From a virus (taxonomy: Duplodnaviria > Heunggongvirae > Uroviricota > Caudoviricetes), in the IMG/VR virus record IMGVR_UViG_2693429668_000006: a DNA stretch of 64,000 nt; one strand, given 5' to 3'. Of this stretch, positions 13,392 through 64,000 are shown piece after piece. The notes beneath the pieces are model-generated. The model saw only the letters and a program-made list of their open reading frames with translations. It did no database searches and had not been told where the DNA came from. A program made the position numbers and the translations under genes. The stretch's first letter is position 1, and each line of letters opens with the position of its first letter.

Positions 13392-14710
13392 TCTTTATCT
13401 CCGATTCGATCTTCTGTATCGCGTAAGCAACGCGGCCATTTCAGTCGTGGGTGGCGTAAGCTGCCGTCCGGTGTTTTCTCGTGACAATGAACCTCAACAA
13501 TACGACCACGGTACTTCTCTTTGTTGTTCCAGATCTCGTCCAGATATTTATGCTTAATGCCGCTCGCACGAACAATCACACCGTTTTCAAGGCGAATAAC
13601 AATTTTTCCAAGCGTGTTGGCAAAACCAGAGTCCGGGTCGCCCGACTCAAAGTCGATAATTTCACCATCTTCTGAATCTTCGTCTTTTAACTTCCACCAG
13701 CTGCGGGTACGTTTAAACTCGTAAACAGAGTTCGGATCTTTGCCCATCTCCCCTTCTTCGTTATCGTCAAGGCGTTTCATGAAGCGTTCGATGAAGTCTT
13801 CGTGGCTATGGATGATATAGAACGGATGCAGGTGAATGTCTTGTGTGTAGCCTTCACTGCGATCGTTTTTGAACAACGCCACGAGAATAGCCAGGCGCTC
13901 TTTCAGCTTCATACCTGTCTTTGCATACTCTTTGGATTTAGCCTGTGCCCGCCATTCCGGTAGGAAGAAGTCGAAAACATGATAAATAGCGCCAATTGCC
14001 TGCACGTTCTTTTTGCGCAATGCAGATACGGACTGGTTAAATGAACCGGCTGTTCCTTCACCATCGAAGAAGATGTGTTTGTGGCCTGAAAGTTTGCCTA
14101 ATTCGAGCATTGCTGGCTTTAGGTGATCGAGAGACGTGATTGGATTACCAGTACGAGAAAGGAAGTTAACCTCTTCCTCGTCAACAATAACCTCGCAAAT
14201 TACTCGCAAACCATCGAGCTTAAGACTGCCAATCATCGGCCATTTTGCTTTAGGGTTTGGCTTGAAGGGGTATTTGTCGCCTTTTTCTTTATACGGTGAC
14301 GCCAGCTGCACCTCGAATTTCGGAATGGGATTTTCAAAAACCTTGTTGCATAGGCTAATCCCAACACCCGCTTTCGGGTCTTTTAAGAGGAAACGACGGA
14401 ACACGTCCTGCCCATCGGCGCACATTGACGCCACGATAGACTCAACAGCAGCTATTGCTGCGTTCCCCGTCAGCTCGCGAGAGGCCAGCTTATTCAGTAC
14501 ATCAATGGCTTTTTCGTCACTTGGGACGGACTCACTAAGCGGCTCTGCCACTTTGTATTTCTTTACCCCAAAACGGATGAAAGGGTTGAGCATCAATGAA
14601 ACCATGCTTTGTTCAAAGTCATCCATGTTGGCCAATGCCTCTTTTTTTGCATTGGTTCCCATAGCTTTCATTTCGTCCAGCTTATGCTTAAGTGCGATCA
14701 ACTTTTTCAT
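13388..14710 (-). CDS. ATP-dependent DNA ligase
   Basis: 440 aa; adenylation motif I KxDG in MIGSLKLDGLRVI; size and layout as in T7/T4-type ligases. Confidence 0.85.
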   Translation of the reverse strand: MKKLIALKHKLDEMKAMGTNAKKEALANMDDFEQSMVSLMLNPFIRFGVKKYKVAEPLSESVPSDEKAIDVLNKLASRELTGNAAIAAVESIVASMCADGQDVFRRFLLKDPKAGVGISLCNKVFENPIPKFEVQLASPYKEKGDKYPFKPNPKAKWPMIGSLKLDGLRVICEVIVDEEEVNFLSRTGNPITSLDHLKPAMLELGKLSGHKHIFFDGEGTAGSFNQSVSALRKKNVQAIGAIYHVFDFFLPEWRAQAKSKEYAKTGMKLKERLAILVALFKNDRSEGYTQDIHLHPFYIIHSHEDFIERFMKRLDDNEEGEMGKDPNSVYEFKRTRSWWKLKDEDSEDGEIIDFESGDPDSGFANTLGKIVIRLENGVIVRASGIKHKYLDEIWNNKEKYRGRIVEVHCHEKTPDGSLRHPRLKWPRCLRDTEDRIGDKE

Positions 14711-20642: not shown

Positions 20643-20685
20643 GTGCTTTCCTTTGTTTTTTAAACAAATTGTTTTCTAGTATTAG

Positions 20686-24393: not shown

Positions 24394-24672
24394 TGGAGAG
24401 TTCCCTTTGCGTCTATTATTATCGTCTGAAACAACTTGTTTTCTTATATGTGATATAGCCTAAATGCCTACGGCTACGGTGTAAAGGTTAAATGGTAGGT
24501 TGTGGTTAACAATTGGCAATCATAGCTTGTATTTGTCTGTTGAAAAAAGTAACAATGACCTCTATATTACAAGTACGGTGATATGCCGTACACAATTTGA
24601 TAATGCACACGTAATGGGCTATAGCCTTTTAAAGTAATTTTTGAGTCGAAAACTCAGTTTGAACAGAGGAGA

Positions 24673-53542: not shown

Positions 53543-53655
53543 AGATCCCTCTAAAACACACAGAGCGCGTCCATGCGCTCTAAAACAACTTGTTTACTGC
53601 ATCTGCTAACCAACTTGTTTTCTGGGGTGTTTAATTAGGTCTGGCATGTCTTACG

Positions 53656-59329: not shown

Positions 59330-59854
59330 ATGACAACCAAAGATATTACCTACGGTATCCAAGCTGAACTCTGGCCGCGAGATTACACTAACGTTGAAAA
59401 ACTACTGATGTTCTGGCGCAGAGAACAAATTCCTGTAAGGGTCACTCTCGAAGATGGCCAGGCGTTTTGCATGTACGTTTATGGCCTCATGCCATCTCGT
59501 AACAAAGTTGACCTTTGCCCAGCCCCTTTTGACAAAGAAAATCGTATAAGGCTCCCACTTGAACGCATTAGTACAATTGAATCAGGTGTGGTTGACAGTA
59601 TCGCTCACGATTTCAAAGGTCGACTAACAGTTCACCCTGATTATGTCGATAATCGGCCATCACGCCGCGATTTTTTTGCAATTTGCAACCAAGCCTACAA
59701 AGCAAACAAATCTATAAGGGTGTACATGGCGGATGGCCGTGAAATTGAGGGGGTGTCAGCAGGCGCAGATGCTTGTCAGGTTACACTACGTGTCGAGAAC
59801 GGTAGAAAAATAGTTGTTTTGTTCGATTGGGTTGAACGAATTTTGCCTTTTTGA
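59330..59854 (+). CDS. hypothetical protein (175 aa)
   Basis: ORF-track ORF 59252-59854 trimmed to ATG at 59330 (MTTKDITYG), which begins 5 nt after the upstream stop. Confidence 0.45.
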   Translation: MTTKDITYGIQAELWPRDYTNVEKLLMFWRREQIPVRVTLEDGQAFCMYVYGLMPSRNKVDLCPAPFDKENRIRLPLERISTIESGVVDSIAHDFKGRLTVHPDYVDNRPSRRDFFAICNQAYKANKSIRVYMADGREIEGVSAGADACQVTLRVENGRKIVVLFDWVERILPF

Positions 59855-61603: not shown

Positions 61604-61608
61604 AATCG

Positions 61609-61632
61609 AGCGCCCACTATGGGCGCTTTTTT
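61609..61632 (+). terminator. rho-independent terminator (GAGCGCCC-acta-GGGCGCTT plus T-run)
   Basis: Hairpin then TTTTTTCG; same hairpin without T-run also at 61113-61131. Confidence 0.7.
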
Positions 61633-61653
61633 CGTTTCCAATACTTCCACAAT

Positions 61654-61680
61654 AACGCGCCATTGATGGCGCGTTTTTTA
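61654..61680 (+). terminator. second tandem rho-independent terminator
   Basis: Stem AACGCGCCA-ttga-TGGCGCGTT followed by TTTTTTA. Confidence 0.65.
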
Positions 61681-62094
61681 TTGTCTTTAACTCACTCCAA
61701 CAACATAAAAATAAGCGCCAAAATAACGCCATAAACGCGCTTTTATATCCTTACCAGTACATACCCATTACTTAACACATTAACGCGCTTAAAACGCGTT
61801 ATATTGCGCTATAGCGTATGGTTAATCATTGGCTTTTAGTCTTGCTATGTGATCCGCGTTTATTTGTCGGCGCGGATCGGCATTTTGTTTTGTTCCGTAT
61901 CCGCTCGCGTATTATGTGCGCGTGATTTTTCACATAATCACACCACTTAATCACGTATGTGATTATGCTACGAAAGAAATCTGGATGTCTCAGGCGACGA
62001 AAGTCATCATAATTTTCCCCGCTCGCCTGTCCGACAACCGCTGGTTGGATTCCACCAGCTTCCCGATGTTTTTTTCTACATAAAGGCGAATGCA

Positions 62095-62208
62095 GCCGTT
62101 TCCCGAAAAAATCCTGGCCGTTTCCCGTCGGCTCATGAATACGTTCCTCGCCGTTTCTGAAAATTTCCCTGCGGCAGCTGGTGGCTATAGAGAAAGGGCC
62201 GTTTCTGG
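62095..62208. repeat. four direct repeats GCCGTTTC(C/T)(C/T)G in non-coding DNA
   Basis: Exact 11-mer GCCGTTTCCCG at 62095 and 62117; variants at 62150 and 62198, the last embedded in hairpin GGGCC-gtttct-GGCCC. Confidence 0.5.
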
Positions 62209-62220
62209 CCCTCTTCTCAG

Positions 62221-62703
62221 TTACACGCCATCAAGGATGTGGATGCGGTTGCTTGCGTATACATTCAGCATAAAGTTAGCGCAAAACAGTTTCCATGTAT
62301 CAACGCCAGCGGTATACGTAATGTTTTTGCATTTAATCGCATTGTTGGCGATCCGCATCCCCTGCGATACTGCTTCATCGTCGGAAAATTTGAACGACGA
62401 TTGAGTTTTAATCCAGACAGAAATCTGCGTAGCGAACTCAATCAGCTTGGACTGGCAGAATCGCCCGGAGCGCACCGGAAAGACGAACGTTCCGAATCCA
62501 GAATTTACCACATATGCTTTCTCAAATACCCGCGAGTAACGACGATTGCCAATGATGTCGCGTGCAATAATGCATTTTTCTTGTGCTGACAGTTCTACCG
62601 TCTCATTGTCGCGCCATGCACCAAGTACTCGTTTTTCAATGTCAGAGAACGTTACAGCGATATTGCCATGTGCGGGTGCGTTTACAGTAGCGATAAAATT
62701 CAT
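62221..62703 (-). CDS. hypothetical protein (160 aa)
   Basis: ORF track; SD AAGGA; conserved upstream element at 62728-62785 shared with the next cassette. Confidence 0.5.
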   Translation of the reverse strand: MNFIATVNAPAHGNIAVTFSDIEKRVLGAWRDNETVELSAQEKCIIARDIIGNRRYSRVFEKAYVVNSGFGTFVFPVRSGRFCQSKLIEFATQISVWIKTQSSFKFSDDEAVSQGMRIANNAIKCKNITYTAGVDTWKLFCANFMLNVYASNRIHILDGV

Positions 62704-62880
62704 GATTAATTCCTTATCGTAAATAACAAATTGTTTTCTTGTTGGTGTTAATTATCGTTGTACGAATAAGGCGTCAAAGTGGAAAGTTGCGGTAGCCGGA
62801 CGGGAACAGGTGGGTTTGTCGGTTGCCTGGAGGTAAGAGGTTGGTGTTTTTAGCCTGCGGGAAACAGGATGGTCATTTAA

Positions 62881-62900
62881 GGCCACCAGCATTGGTGGCC
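62881..62900. terminator. hairpin GGCCACC-agcatt-GGTGGCC
   Basis: Directly downstream of stop at 62908; near-identical copy with inverted loop at 63351-63370. Confidence 0.5.
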
Positions 62901-62907
62901 TTAATCT

Positions 62908-63195
62908 TTAGTGGAGCAGACCGATGTCGATGGTATCCCCTGAATCATCCACACGGATCATCAGCATGGCAAAGGCGTTTAGTGGATAGCTTGCGTGCCA
63001 TTCAGGGAAGCGGTCATCTCGCATGAAGTCGGCAATGTCGTAAACGCATCCCTCAAAGTGGAAGAATCGCGTGCTTACCTGCTCGTCATAATCCACATGA
63101 TCCATTTCTTGCTGTTCTGTTTCCGGCAAGTCCAGCCATGATTCAAGAAATACATTTTGTGCTTTAGGGGTAATGGTGAAATCAGTCATGAGCAT
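62908..63195 (-). CDS. small acidic hypothetical protein (95 aa)
   Basis: ORF-track ORF trimmed to ATG 63195 (MLMTDFT) with SD GTGAGGAT; D/E-rich. Confidence 0.45.
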   Translation of the reverse strand: MLMTDFTITPKAQNVFLESWLDLPETEQQEMDHVDYDEQVSTRFFHFEGCVYDIADFMRDDRFPEWHASYPLNAFAMLMIRVDDSGDTIDIGLLH

Positions 63196-63350
63196 ATCCT
63201 CACTGCGTAAACATGTTGTTTTCTTGTTGGTGTAATTATCGCAGTGTAGATAAGGCATAAAAGAAGTTAATACAGGCTGAATACACAAGAAAGGTTCTGG
63301 AAGTTGATAGCCAGGTTTCAAACTAACCTTCGGTTATTAAAAGTCATTTA

Positions 63351-63370
63351 AGACCACCAATGCTGGTGGC
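63351..63370. terminator. hairpin GACCACC-aatgct-GGTGGCC (loop-inverted copy of 62881-62900)
   Basis: Downstream of stop at 63525; shares flanks CATTTAA...TTAAT with the first copy. Confidence 0.45.
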
Positions 63371-63524
63371 CTTAATAATTATCGCCCGATTACGCTAAGG
63401 ATCTTTTCCTCAACTGATTTGTTGTTGCGACTAAACTGCCTTGCGTATCTGATGACAGAAGAGGCGTTTTGCTTTCTGACCATCTCGGCTCTTTCCTTCA
63501 GGCGTTTCTTGAAATCGCCCATAT

Positions 63525-63899
63525 TTACCACCAGGCGCAGAAGGTCAGTCTGTTATTGTGAAAGTCGTGGTTCTTAATCAGATCTTCCACAAGCTCTTTC
63601 AACTCCCCCACATCATGCCAGTAACCTTCATCGTACTCCTGACTGCCGAAGAAAAAACCTTCCCGGGTAGGCAAGTACTCTTCGCAATTACTTTCGTTTA
63701 TGTGCATCAAATGAGCCTTCAGAAAACAAATGTCATTCATCGTTAATTCTAAAAGCTCACAATTTTCGACTTCACCTACGTTGCGCTCCATCCACCCAAC
63801 GAGCGCATTGAACTTACGGAAGTAAGCAACCTGCTTTCTGGATGCCTCGTTATTCAGATCGTTTTTAGGCTGTGTCTCGATATAGATATCAAGTCCCAT
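63525..63899 (-). CDS. hypothetical protein (124 aa)
   Basis: ORF-track ORF trimmed to ATG 63899 (MGLDIYIET) with SD AAGGAAA; acidic. Confidence 0.45.
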   Translation of the reverse strand: MGLDIYIETQPKNDLNNEASRKQVAYFRKFNALVGWMERNVGEVENCELLELTMNDICFLKAHLMHINESNCEEYLPTREGFFFGSQEYDEGYWHDVGELKELVEDLIKNHDFHNNRLTFCAWW

Positions 63900-64000
63900 G
63901 ATGGTTTCCTTATTAAGTTGCTTCAGTGAAATCATTTTCACAAATCAGATAAGGCAGAAAACAAATTGTTATCGGGCTTAATAAAATGGCGCGGTTTACG

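What the first reader, a model, noticed from the sequence alone, without database searches (positions are those of the whole stretch)
62221..63990. Array of small-gene cassettes sharing a conserved upstream element and loop-inverted hairpin terminators
Three consecutive minus-strand small genes (62221-62703, 62908-63195, 63525-63899) each have a related upstream sequence: TGTTTTCTTGTTGGTGT(T)AATTATCG at 62728-62760 and 63215-63245, and a partial ACAAATTGTT copy near 63965. The last two are followed by the same hairpin with the loop inverted (GGCCACC-AGCATT-GGTGGCC at 62881-62900; GACCACC-AATGCT-GGTGGCC at 63351-63370). The products are small and mostly acidic. Modular arrays of small acidic proteins with individual promoters are typical of early-expressed anti-restriction or anti-defence loci in phages and plasmid leading regions.
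Basis: partly seen in the sequence, partly recalled or inferred. Interest (0 to 1): 0.55.

Follow-up and report, generated by a model that had tools for sequence, protein, structure and literature searches.

The report
Swappable promoter-operator-hairpin gene cassettes in phage-plasmid
The three small genes sit in a fast-changing stretch of an SSU5/Cyrano-type E. coli phage-plasmid, where each gene has its own promoter, a genome-wide regulatory palindrome and a hairpin that also serve as recombination points for gaining or losing genes; what the proteins do, including any anti-defence role, is still untested.

Summary
The window is an SSU5/Cyrano-type E. coli phage-plasmid.

- **Shared upstream element.** It is a sigma-70-like promoter followed by a 16-nt partly palindromic motif, AGAAAACA-N3-TGTTT.
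- **The motif is genome-wide.** It occurs 15 times in the 110-kb element against 0.4 expected. All copies are intergenic; 13 lie 12-66 nt upstream of start codons, including helicase, nrdB and small terminase. Salmonella phage SSU5 has 18 copies at orthologous promoters.
- **The 'partial' third copy** is a full inverted copy. It is the upstream partner of a recurring pair 51 bp apart, centre to centre.
- **The hairpins** are 12-bp stems whose central bases are reverse-complemented.
- **Cassette turnover.** A close relative lacks exactly the 471-bp hairpin-to-hairpin unit carrying the 93-aa gene. Only 99 of 219 Escherichia plasmids with the neighbouring 160-aa gene cassette carry it.
- **Closest analogue:** the promoter-stem-loop cassettes (PeSLs) of T4-type phages.
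- **Expression.** Published RNA-seq shows the two acidic genes silent in lysogens.

The parts
62190..62218 (-). Hairpin directly after the stop codon of the 160-aa gene; probable terminator
   Evidence: RNA fold of -16.5 kcal/mol, z-score -2.5.
62221..62703 (-). P1: 160-aa basic protein (pI 9.2). It is core to the SSU5 lineage; function unknown (PHROG 1641).
   Evidence: Found in 639 PLSDB records.
62724..62739 (-). Operator-like motif AGAAAACAATTTGTTA, 21 nt upstream of the P1 start codon
   Evidence: Conserved in Klebsiella and SSU5.
62751..62777 (-). Inferred P1 promoter: -35 TTGACG (62772-62777), 15-nt spacer, -10 GATAAT (62751-62756)
   Evidence: The block CTT(t/g)GACGCCTTAT-N9-GCGATAATTAA is conserved across three genera. 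It was missed by the 16-18 nt spacer scan. Promoter activity is inferred, not shown.
62787..62879 (-). Three imperfect ~30-nt repeats between hairpin B and the P1 promoter. They are better conserved towards SSU5 than the neighbouring coding sequence; role unknown.
   Evidence: (D3, D6).
62877..62904 (-). Hairpin B: 28-nt palindrome TTAAGGCCACC-AATGCT-GGTGGCCTTAA (sense strand), 3 nt after the P2 stop. It is one boundary of the 471-bp P2 cassette.
62908..63189 (-). P2: 93-aa strongly acidic protein (pI 4.1, net charge -15). Restricted to the lineage and variably present (PHROG 1845).
   Evidence: The AF2 model is poor (pLDDT 70.7) and has no fold match.
63209..63224 (-). Operator-like motif AGAAAACAACATGTTT, 20 nt upstream of the P2 start codon
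63235..63261 (-). Inferred P2 promoter: -35 TTTATG (63256-63261), 15-nt spacer, -10 GATAAT (63235-63240). It is a paralogue of the P1 promoter.
63348..63375 (-). Hairpin A: the same palindrome as hairpin B with its centre reverse-complemented (AGCATT on the sense strand), 3 nt after the stop of the 47-aa ORF. It is the other boundary of the P2 cassette.
63379..63522 (-). 47-aa basic ORF (pI 11) starting 2 nt after the P4 stop; annotated as CYRAN_109
   Evidence: Transcribed about 10-fold above its neighbours in lysogens (PMC9928086 S1 Table).
63525..63899 (-). P4: 124-aa acidic protein (pI 4.7) from a very large orphan family (PHROG 7971)
63934..63971 (-). P4 promoter region: -10-like GAAAAT (63934-63939), the GCCTTAT box, and an inverted operator copy AGAAAACAAATTGTTA (63956-63971, written on the + strand) overlapping the -35 position
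   Evidence: The same upstream and downstream pair geometry occurs in Klebsiella and SSU5.

Best explanation
**What the region is.** It is the window-side end of a roughly 6-kb hyperplastic array of orphan genes in an SSU5/Cyrano-type phage-plasmid. The array continues beyond the window to metG.

**How each cassette is built.** Each cassette is a self-contained transcription unit with these parts, in order:
- a stable hairpin that ends the previous unit;
- a sigma-70-like promoter (TTGACG/TTTATG, 15-nt spacer, GATAAT);
- a 16-nt partly palindromic operator, AGAAAACA-N3-TGTTT, just downstream of the -10, sometimes with a second inverted copy 51 bp upstream over the -35;
- a Shine-Dalgarno sequence and a small ORF.

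**How it is regulated (inferred).** The operator is shared with the promoters of the replication, nucleotide-metabolism and packaging operons. I infer that a phage-plasmid-encoded dimeric DNA-binding regulator, not yet identified, holds the array and the lytic genes under one control. That control would be off in the plasmid prophage and on after infection or induction.

**How the array changes.** The conserved hairpin and promoter-operator modules also act as patches of homology. Cassettes are deleted, inserted and duplicated at these patches, as with the PeSLs of T4-type phages.

**The loop inversion.** It is a mutational by-product of a perfect palindrome, arising from template switching or recombination inside the stem. 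It is not a designed switch.

**The proteins.** Their function is unknown. The likeliest class is small inhibitors of host or defence proteins made early in infection, but this is inference.
For: **Shown**
- *Identity of the element:*.
- *Motif census:* 15 hits with at most 1 mismatch in 110,686 bp against 0.42 in shuffles (maximum 3). All are intergenic in a genome that is 85% coding. Thirteen lie 12-66 nt upstream of a same-strand start codon. The window alone has 14 hits at up to 2 mismatches against 1.3 expected.
- *Conservation:* SSU5 has 18 hits at orthologous promoters (terS, helicase, CobT, nrdB and the array). The promoter-operator block is conserved across E. coli, Klebsiella and Salmonella.
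- *Paired operators:* inverted and direct copies 48 nt apart start to start recur in four genomes.
- *Compact unit in SSU5:* the GGCCAC...GTGGCC hairpin abuts the inverted operator there.
- *Cassette turnover:* CMS-2020a lacks exactly the 471-bp unit. Its single hairpin combines the left flank and loop of hairpin A with the right flank of hairpin B.
- *Presence counts in PLSDB:* P1 639 records, P4 326 and P2 259. Within Escherichia the counts are 219, 196 and 99.
- *Inversion elsewhere:* an orthologous operator has its central triplet inverted between near-identical strains.
- *Expression:* P2 and P4 are at or near zero reads in LB-grown lysogens and rise in macrophages. Other motif-bearing genes are also low (PMC9928086 S1 Table).
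- *Precedent:* PeSLs in T4-type phages (PMC2839356).

**Inferred**
- The promoter hexamers.
- That the motif acts on DNA as a repressor site.
- The timing of expression.
- The role of the proteins.
Against: - **Promoter call.** The consensus promoter scan found no promoter at these sites, because the inferred spacer of 15 nt is atypical.
- **No regulator identified.** The intergenic region beside the putative master repressor (CYRAN_45 homologue, window about 6400-6650) has no clean motif copy. The binding protein may therefore not be the immunity repressor.
- **Orientation bias.** All 13 start-proximal copies face the same way relative to the gene. This also fits an RNA-level element or simple descent from one duplicated module.
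- **Hairpin B.** It lacks a U-tract in the sense direction, so intrinsic termination there is doubtful.
- **Limits of the RNA-seq.** It comes from lysogens and macrophage infection, not from a synchronised lytic cycle.
- **The 47-aa ORF.** It is transcribed in lysogens although it lies inside one of the cassettes.
Confidence: 0.6

Rival explanations
1. One reading: the array is an early-expressed anti-restriction or anti-defence locus, and the small acidic proteins (P2, P4) act as DNA mimics or defence inhibitors. This can coexist with the best explanation, because it concerns what the proteins do rather than how the cassettes are built.
For: - P2 and P4 are strongly acidic, and the acidity is conserved. 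All of the P2 family and 97% of 60 diverse P4 relatives have pI below 5.5.
- The genes are silent in lysogens.
- Their presence varies among close relatives.
- P4-like folds occur in many phages, including jumbo phages.
Against: - No sequence match to any known anti-defence, Pfam, NCBIfam or PDB family.
- AntiDefenseFinder found nothing universal in SSU5-group elements.
- The P2 model is unreliable and matches no known fold.
- P1 and the 47-aa ORF are basic.
- One P4 relative sits in an ordinary chromosomal context.
Confidence: 0.3
2. The shared motif acts on RNA. It would be a 5'-UTR translational operator, A-rich then U-rich, bound by an RNA-binding protein. One candidate is the FljA-family protein with an Hfq-like domain encoded 3 kb away at 59330-59854; host Hfq is another.
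For: - All 13 start-proximal copies are in the sense orientation, 12-66 nt (mostly 12-41 nt) upstream of the start codon.
- The window encodes a Flag1_repress (FljA) family protein (E = 1.5e-84) with a weak Hfq-domain hit.
- From my own knowledge, Salmonella FljA represses fliC post-transcriptionally through its 5' UTR.
Against: - Inverted partner copies lie upstream of the -35 at a fixed 51-bp centre-to-centre distance in four genomes. They would not be part of the mRNA.
- The core is a DNA palindrome, typical of sites bound by protein dimers.
- As RNA it could form only a weak 5-bp A-U stem.
- The fliC leader, as I recall it, has no similar sequence.
Confidence: 0.12
3. The genes are ordinary morons or lysogenic-conversion genes (for example superinfection exclusion or toxin-antitoxin) expressed from the plasmid prophage for the benefit of the host.
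For: - Each has its own promoter and terminator-like hairpin, as morons do.
- The 47-aa ORF and the 244-aa coiled-coil gene of the array were scored as morons in Cyrano (PMC9928086).
- P1 is weakly expressed in lysogens.
Against: - P2 and P4 are at or near zero reads in LB-grown lysogens.
- The promoters carry the same motif as the lytic replication and packaging operons.
- No PADLOC defence-family hits.
Confidence: 0.1
4. The similarity is only the remnant of a recent local duplication of an intergenic segment and has no regulatory meaning.
For: - The P2 promoter region aligns along its length with the segment from hairpin B to the P1 promoter.
- Duplication of whole modules would also explain the uniform orientation of the motif.
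Against: - The motif is enriched about 35-fold genome-wide and is exclusively intergenic.
- It is kept at orthologous promoters in SSU5, where the flanking DNA is about 70-80% identical.
Confidence: 0.03

Closest known systems
PeSLs (promoter-early stem-loop cassettes) of T4-type phages RB49/phi1 (Arbiol et al. 2010, PMC2839356; Comeau et al. 2014, PMC4122927)
   Same: - Conserved sigma-70-like promoter plus stem-loop modules flank orphan genes in hyperplastic regions.
- A close relative carries a single chimeric element where a cassette is missing, with a crossover mapped inside the stem-loop.
- The modules isolate cassettes transcriptionally and target recombination to safe intergenic sites.
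   Different: - The host element is a temperate siphovirus-type phage-plasmid, not a virulent T4-like myovirus.
- There is no sequence similarity to PeSLs, whose stems are GGGG...CCCC.
- In the window the hairpin and promoter are 147-161 nt apart rather than forming one ~100-bp motif, although they are compact in SSU5.
- The module carries an extra palindromic operator shared with core lytic operons.
- Mini-circle formation has not been tested.
Dispersed C1 operators of phage-plasmid P1 (from my own knowledge)
   Same: One short, oriented operator sequence is scattered at many promoters around a phage-plasmid genome. This ties many separate operons to one regulator.
   Different: - The sequence is unrelated; the P1 site is ATTGCTCTAATAAATTT.
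- The binding protein here is unknown.
- No copy was found beside the putative immunity repressor gene.
Morons of lambdoid prophages
   Same: Single genes flanked by their own promoter and terminator, inserted between other genes.
   Different: - Morons are expressed from the repressed prophage and lack conserved flanking linkers.
- P2 and P4 are silent in lysogens, and the flanks are conserved modules.
Anti-defence islands in plasmid leading regions and phage early regions (Ocr, ArdA and similar)
   Same: Runs of small, often acidic, fast-turnover genes.
   Different: - The element is non-mobilizable, so there is no oriT or leading region and no ssDNA (Frpo) promoters.
- There is no homology to known anti-defence families.
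YfbM (PDB 1ryl) and the Neisseria DNA mimic DMP12 (PDB 3w1o)
   Different: - No sequence-level relationship; 1 of 60 relatives hits Pfam DMP12 at E = 0.04.
- A higher-scoring hit is an unrelated enzyme domain.
- The function of YfbM is itself unknown.
Loop inversions in hairpins and quasi-palindromes, as known from chloroplast non-coding DNA and template-switch mutagenesis (from my own knowledge)
   Same: Only the centre of a perfect inverted repeat is reverse-complemented while the flanks keep their orientation.
   Different: Here the event is seen between two paralogous hairpins and also between orthologous operators of near-identical phage-plasmids.

Membership tests
PeSL-type mobile regulatory cassettes | Repeated, conserved sigma-70-like promoter immediately upstream of small genes | tested here: met
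   The P1 and P2 upstream regions align with score 57 against a null maximum of 26. The block is conserved across three genera. Promoter activity itself was not measured.
PeSL-type mobile regulatory cassettes | Stable stem-loop (terminator or attenuator) that is part of the same repeated module | tested here: met
   The hairpins fold at -20.1 and -17.4 kcal/mol. In SSU5 the hairpin abuts the operator-promoter unit. In the window it lies 147-161 nt upstream.
PeSL-type mobile regulatory cassettes | Preferential association with orphan genes in hyperplastic regions | tested here: met
   Seven of 15 motif sites lie in the 5.3-kb array. Every array protein has unknown function.
PeSL-type mobile regulatory cassettes | Close relatives differ by whole cassettes, leaving one chimeric element | tested here: met
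   CMS-2020a lacks exactly 471 bp. Its hairpin is an A-left, B-right chimera.
PeSL-type mobile regulatory cassettes | Formation of excised mini-circles during infection | not testable with these tools
   Needs inverse PCR on induced cultures.
PeSL-type mobile regulatory cassettes | Sequence homology to T4-type PeSLs (consensus promoter with poly-G/poly-C stems) | tested here: not met
   The stems here are GGCCACC/GGTGGCC, and the module contains an operator that PeSLs lack. It is an analogue, not a member.
DNA-mimic or anti-restriction proteins (Ocr, ArdA, DMP12 and similar) | Sequence membership in a known family | tested here: not met
   Pfam, NCBIfam and PDB sequence searches were negative. 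One of 60 P4 relatives hits Pfam DMP12 at E = 0.04.
DNA-mimic or anti-restriction proteins (Ocr, ArdA, DMP12 and similar) | High net negative charge conserved in the family | tested here: met
   P2 has net charge -15 and P4 -12. All of the P2 family and 97% of the P4 relatives have pI below 5.5. P1 and the 47-aa ORF are basic.
DNA-mimic or anti-restriction proteins (Ocr, ArdA, DMP12 and similar) | Fold matching a known mimic | tested here: inconclusive
DNA-mimic or anti-restriction proteins (Ocr, ArdA, DMP12 and similar) | Inhibition of a restriction or defence system, or binding to a DNA-binding protein | not testable with these tools
   Needs an experiment.
Plasmid leading-region anti-defence island | Location next to oriT on a conjugative or mobilizable plasmid, with ssDNA promoters | tested here: not met
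   In PLSDB, 701 of 728 related records are typed non-mobilizable, and the element is a tailed phage-plasmid.
Moron | Own promoter and terminator | tested here: met
Moron | Expressed from the repressed prophage | tested here: not met
   From published data: P2 and P4 give log2(fpkm+5) of 2.3-3.1, where 2.32 means zero reads. The 47-aa ORF is the exception at 5.6-6.1.
Rho-independent terminator | GC-rich stem followed by a U-tract on the transcribed strand | tested here: inconclusive
   Hairpin A qualifies on the sense strand. Hairpin B qualifies only on the antisense strand.
Dispersed-operator regulon (P1 C1 type) | The same short site at many separate promoters of the element | tested here: met
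Dispersed-operator regulon (P1 C1 type) | Bound by the element's repressor | not testable with these tools
   No regulator was identified, and no clean site lies next to the putative repressor gene.

The most novel reading that the evidence does not exclude
SSU5-type phage-plasmids run their lytic and early programme through one dispersed palindromic operator, AGAAAACA-N3-TGTTT, which has not been described. The same operator-promoter-hairpin module also acts as a recombination linker that drives turnover of orphan genes. That would make it a PeSL-like system outside T4-type phages, coupled to a repressor regulon. Within it, the 124-aa protein would represent a very large, uniformly acidic and uncharacterised phage family (at least 8000 sequences, no Pfam entry) with a YfbM/DMP12-like fold, working as a DNA mimic or defence inhibitor.
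Probability: 0.2. Interest if true: 0.65.

Novelty: new variant of a known kind. Interest (0 to 1): 0.45.

Why it matters
SSU5-type phage-plasmids are common in clinical E. coli, Shigella, Klebsiella, Salmonella Typhi (pHCM2) and Yersinia pestis (pMT1), and they carry resistance genes. Their regulation is essentially undescribed.

- **A testable regulon.** A single operator that marks about 15 promoters gives a direct handle on the lysis-lysogeny and early-gene programme.
- **Gene turnover.** The hairpin and promoter modules explain how these elements swap small genes without breaking neighbouring operons. They extend the PeSL idea beyond virulent T4-like phages.
- **A large unknown family.** The 124-aa family is one of the larger phage protein families without any annotation. 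Its conserved acidity and confident fold make it a reasonable candidate for anti-defence screens.

Tried and rejected
- **Known RNA families.** An Rfam scan of the array at E up to 1 gave only sub-threshold chance hits on terminators. I dropped the idea of a known sRNA or riboswitch.
- **Tandem repeats.** Tandem Repeats Finder found nothing relevant.
- **Canonical promoter scan.** It did not find the inferred promoters because their spacer is 15 nt. I kept them as inference from conservation.
- **Family and structure searches.** Pfam, PHROGs, NCBIfam, PADLOC and PDB sequence searches of all array proteins gave only PHROGs of unknown function. One protein outside the window carries a DUF5983 C-terminal domain.
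- **AFDB fold search.** The library was unavailable.
- **Genomic context of P4 relatives.** One lies in a phage small-ORF run and one in an ordinary Bacillales chromosomal locus, which was not informative.
- **Integron attC, REP elements and ssDNA (Frpo) promoters.** I considered these for the hairpins and rejected them. The palindrome is perfect and only 28 nt long, it is not found elsewhere in the window, and the element is not conjugative.
- **Host transcription-factor sites.** From memory I compared the motif with CRP, Fur, LexA, PurR, Cra, IHF and PhoP sites. None fits, but this is not a formal test.
- **Motif beside the putative immunity repressor gene.** I looked and found none.
Full report
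**Identity of the window**

The 2.4 kb around the finding is 100% identical to an uncultured-bacterium plasmid (MF554642.1). It is 99-99.9% identical to many ~110-kb non-mobilizable E. coli plasmids, and 99% identical to Escherichia phage Cyrano (pLF82). Klebsiella phage-plasmids and Salmonella phage SSU5 are more distant relatives. The annotated relative pGD31-F25 carries tail, capsid and terminase genes plus RepA, ParB-like proteins, DnaE, a helicase, NrdAB and MetG. The window is therefore an SSU5-type phage-plasmid.

In the relatives, the run of small minus-strand genes continues past the window's end for about 4 kb, up to metG.

**Checking the observation**

The three ORFs exist.
- The middle gene most likely starts at 63189 (93 aa), which is the RefSeq call and the start with a well-spaced Shine-Dalgarno sequence.
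- A 47-aa basic ORF (63379-63522) follows the 124-aa gene by 2 nt and was overlooked.
- The 17-mer TGTTTTCTTGTTGGTGT is exact at 62732 and 63217.
- The two upstream regions align over 57 columns with score 57. The shuffle maximum was 26, and 0 of 1000 shuffles reached the observed score.
- The 'partial' third copy is a complete copy of the core motif in inverted orientation at 63956-63970.
- The hairpins lie at 62881-62900 and 63352-63371. Each is the core of a 28-nt perfect palindrome that folds as RNA at -20.1 and -17.4 kcal/mol.
- Their flanks are direct repeats (39 nt, 82%) while the centre is reverse-complemented.
- Charge is mixed: the 93-aa and 124-aa proteins are acidic (pI 4.1 and 4.7), while the 160-aa and 47-aa products are basic (pI 9.2 and 11.0).

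**What the upstream element is**

Read on the sense strand, the conserved block is CTTTGACGCCTTAT-N9-(G)CGATAATTAACACCAACA-AGAAAACAAnTTGTT, then 12-21 nt containing the Shine-Dalgarno sequence, then ATG. I read this as three parts:
- a -35 element (TTGACG or TTTATG);
- a 15-nt spacer and a -10 element (GATAAT);
- a 16-nt partly palindromic site, AGAAAACA-N3-TGTTT, starting 12-13 nt after the -10.

The hexamers are inferred. The consensus scan allows only 16-18 nt spacers and did not report them.

The site is not specific to the array.
- In the window, AACAANTTGTTTTCT occurs 14 times at up to 2 mismatches, against 1.3 expected.
- In the complete 110,686-bp relative, the 16-mer occurs 15 times at up to 1 mismatch, against 0.42 in dinucleotide shuffles (maximum 3).
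- All 15 copies are intergenic, although 85% of the genome is coding.
- Thirteen lie 12-66 nt upstream of a same-strand start codon. The genes include the DnaB-like helicase, an AAA ATPase, nrdB, a TerB-like gene and the small-terminase operon, which has two copies. Five are genes of the array.
- A CobT site appears at 2 mismatches.
- SSU5 itself has 18 copies at the orthologous promoters.
- The promoter-operator block upstream of the 160-aa gene is nearly invariant between E. coli, Klebsiella and Salmonella elements, whose proteins are only about 70-80% identical.

**Operator pairs**

The two remaining copies in the E. coli element are inverted and lie upstream of the -35.
- They lie 48 nt start to start (51 bp centre to centre, about five helical turns) from the position of the direct copy.
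- The same geometry recurs in Klebsiella (5919/5967) and twice in SSU5 (768/816 and 6111/6159).
- At the 124-aa gene in E. coli the downstream copy has decayed. At the 93-aa gene the upstream copy has decayed. The alignment of these two upstream regions shows the remnants (score 32; 1 of 1000 shuffles reached it).

The inverted partners lie outside the transcript, and the core is a DNA palindrome. Both favour a dimeric DNA-binding regulator over an RNA element.

I could not identify the regulator. The intergenic region next to the HTH 'putative repressor' gene has no clean copy of the motif.

**Expression**

Misson et al. (PMC9928086) published RNA-seq of LF82, which carries Cyrano, 99% identical to the window here. 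Values are log2(fpkm+5), where 2.32 means zero reads.

| Gene | LB overnight | Macrophages, 6 h |
|---|---|---|
| 124-aa gene | 2.7 / 2.32 | 5.2 / 5.5 |
| 93-aa gene | 3.08 / 2.32 | 6.0 / 6.1 |
| 160-aa gene | 5.14 / 3.98 | 6.41 / 6.49 |

- Other motif-bearing genes (terS, helicase, nrdB) are also low in LB.
- The acidic genes are therefore not morons. They behave like repressed lytic-programme genes.
- The 47-aa ORF is about 10-fold above its neighbours, and the authors listed it as a moron. I cannot explain this.

**Modularity and the hairpins**

- The 160-aa gene is present in all phage relatives. The 93-aa gene is absent from CMS-2020a and PhiR41_1. The 124-aa gene is absent from SSU5 and several Klebsiella phages.
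- In PLSDB the three cassettes are found in 639, 259 and 326 records. Within Escherichia the counts are 219, 99 and 196.
- CMS-2020a differs from the window by exactly the 471 bp between the two hairpins. Its single hairpin has the left flank and loop of hairpin A and the right flank of hairpin B, so the crossover lies inside the palindrome.
- In Klebsiella the 124-aa and 93-aa genes are adjacent, with no promoter or hairpin between them.
- The E. coli segment from hairpin A to the promoter of the 93-aa gene aligns along its length with the segment from hairpin B to the promoter of the 160-aa gene. The regulatory intergenic module was therefore duplicated as a unit.
- In SSU5 a related hairpin (GGCCAC-loop-GTGGCC) directly abuts the inverted operator. 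This forms a compact unit of terminator, operator, promoter and operator.

This matches the published behaviour of PeSLs in T4-type phages. PeSLs are conserved promoter plus stem-loop motifs that flank orphan genes. Single chimeric motifs mark the site of a cassette deletion, and one crossover was mapped within the loop (PMC2839356). There is no sequence homology to PeSLs, so this is an analogue and not a member.

**The loop inversion**

Only the central bases differ (GCAT against ATGC within a 12-bp stem). That is what inversion of a perfect palindrome looks like.

The same kind of event occurs at an orthologous operator outside the window. Upstream of the 109-aa gene, pGD31 and Cyrano read AAACA-TGT-TGTTT, while CMS-2020a reads AAACA-ACA-TGTTT, in flanks that are otherwise about 97% identical. 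I therefore treat the inversion as a recurrent mutational signature of palindromes, arising from template switching or intra-palindrome recombination. I do not treat it as a functional switch.

Hairpin A has a U-rich tail on the sense strand. Hairpin B does not. Its role as a terminator is likely but not shown.

**The proteins**

None matches Pfam, NCBIfam, PADLOC or PDB sequences. PHROGs 1641, 1845 and 7971 are all of unknown function.
- **160-aa and 93-aa proteins.** Both are restricted to SSU5-type elements. The NCBI name 'ABC transporter' for the 93-aa protein is spurious.
- **124-aa protein.** It belongs to a very large family.
  - It has 2459 representatives at 50% clustering and at least 7997 proteins in the profile search. 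There is no Pfam entry.
  - The consensus is MGLDxY...YWRKxNxxHxWF...LPTxxGFFFGSxEYDxxY.
  - Its AlphaFold model is confident (pLDDT 91.5).
  - BFVD shows the fold in many uncharacterised phage proteins, including those of jumbo phages.
- **Acidity.** It is conserved in 97% of 60 diverse relatives of the 124-aa protein and in all relatives of the 93-aa protein.
- **93-aa model.** It is unreliable and matches nothing.
- **External screen.** A published AntiDefenseFinder screen of 1227 SSU5-group elements found only Rad, in a minority.

The anti-defence or DNA-mimic idea therefore remains a reasonable hypothesis for the two acidic proteins. It rests on charge, a modest fold resemblance, variability and silence in lysogeny.

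**Verdict**

- The best-supported account is a set of self-contained cassettes (hairpin, promoter, operator, ORF). They are wired into a phage-wide regulon, and their conserved regulatory modules mediate gain and loss of cassettes.
- This is a new variant of a known kind: PeSL-like cassettes combined with a P1-like dispersed operator.
- The identity of the regulator, the timing of expression and the functions of the proteins are inferred or unknown.

Noticed in passing
window 59330-59854 (+): A 174-aa protein of the FljA family (Pfam Flag1_repress, E = 1.5e-84) with a weak Hfq-domain hit. It is conserved in Cyrano (78% identity) and SSU5. Why a phage-plasmid keeps a post-transcriptional flagellin repressor homologue is unclear. 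It is a candidate binder if the shared motif acts on RNA.
   Followed up: partly
window 63379-63522 (-): The 47-aa basic ORF (CYRAN_109) is transcribed about 10-fold above the flanking 124-aa and 93-aa genes in LB-grown lysogens, according to published RNA-seq. It was listed there as a moron. Possible causes are an internal promoter, a hairpin-stabilised 3' fragment or an antisense RNA; none has been resolved.
   Followed up: partly
window 62787-62879: Three imperfect ~30-nt repeats (ACCnACCTnTTnCCnnCnGGCnACCGnnAA on the sense strand) lie between hairpin B and the promoter of the 160-aa gene. About 45 nt of this stretch is ~90% identical in SSU5, better than the adjacent coding sequence. The same unit recurs in L001 at 13832-13898.
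   Followed up: partly
window 62095-62210; L001 13119-13210: Four copies of GCCGTTTC(C), spaced 22-50 nt apart, lie downstream of the 160-aa gene. A similar cluster lies in the 1.5-kb non-coding stretch beyond the window. In both places the GCCGTTTC cluster and the ~30-nt repeats are about 620-655 nt apart in the same order, as if the non-coding stretch once held a paralogous cassette.
   Followed up: no
L001 12800-14280 (beyond the window end): A ~1.5-kb stretch inside the array has no RefSeq gene. It is strongly GT-rich on the + strand and has several repeat families. Cyrano annotates two ORFs there. It matches no Rfam family.
   Followed up: no
window 61604-62220: A 617-nt non-coding region lies between convergent transcription units. 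It holds at least four terminator-like hairpins and TAATCAC/GTGATTA repeats. Only its first ~140 nt are conserved in SSU5.
   Followed up: no
window 6106-6124, 20663-20677, 24430-24444, 53580-53623: Further copies of the AGAAAACA-N3-TGTTT motif lie just upstream of the CobT-like gene, the DnaB-like helicase, an AAA ATPase and, as two tandem copies, the small-terminase operon.
   Followed up: yes
L001 12748-12763 compared with L006 (CMS-2020a): The operator upstream of the 109-aa gene has its central triplet reverse-complemented between near-identical strains (TGT against ACA). This is the same kind of event as the hairpin loop inversion.
   Followed up: yes
L001 10126/10610 and 12264/12748: Two separate pairs of promoter-operator modules are each spaced exactly 484 nt apart. 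This may be coincidence or may reflect a preferred cassette size (D1).
   Followed up: no
window 62908-63189 (-): Homologues of the 93-aa acidic protein are widely labelled 'ABC transporter' in NCBI records. The name has no support from any domain search and is an annotation error that has spread between records.
   Followed up: yes
L001 15069-15368 (beyond the window end): The first gene of the array, next to metG, encodes a 99-aa acidic protein with a DUF5983 C-terminal domain (E = 7e-11). Its promoter is flanked by a perfect operator pair that forms a 30-nt inverted repeat.
   Followed up: no
L008 6505-6777 (SSU5): In SSU5, a 90-aa 'repressor-like' gene (weak HTH_60 hit) is inserted on the opposite strand between the 93-aa and 160-aa genes. 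It is absent from the E. coli elements.
   Followed up: no
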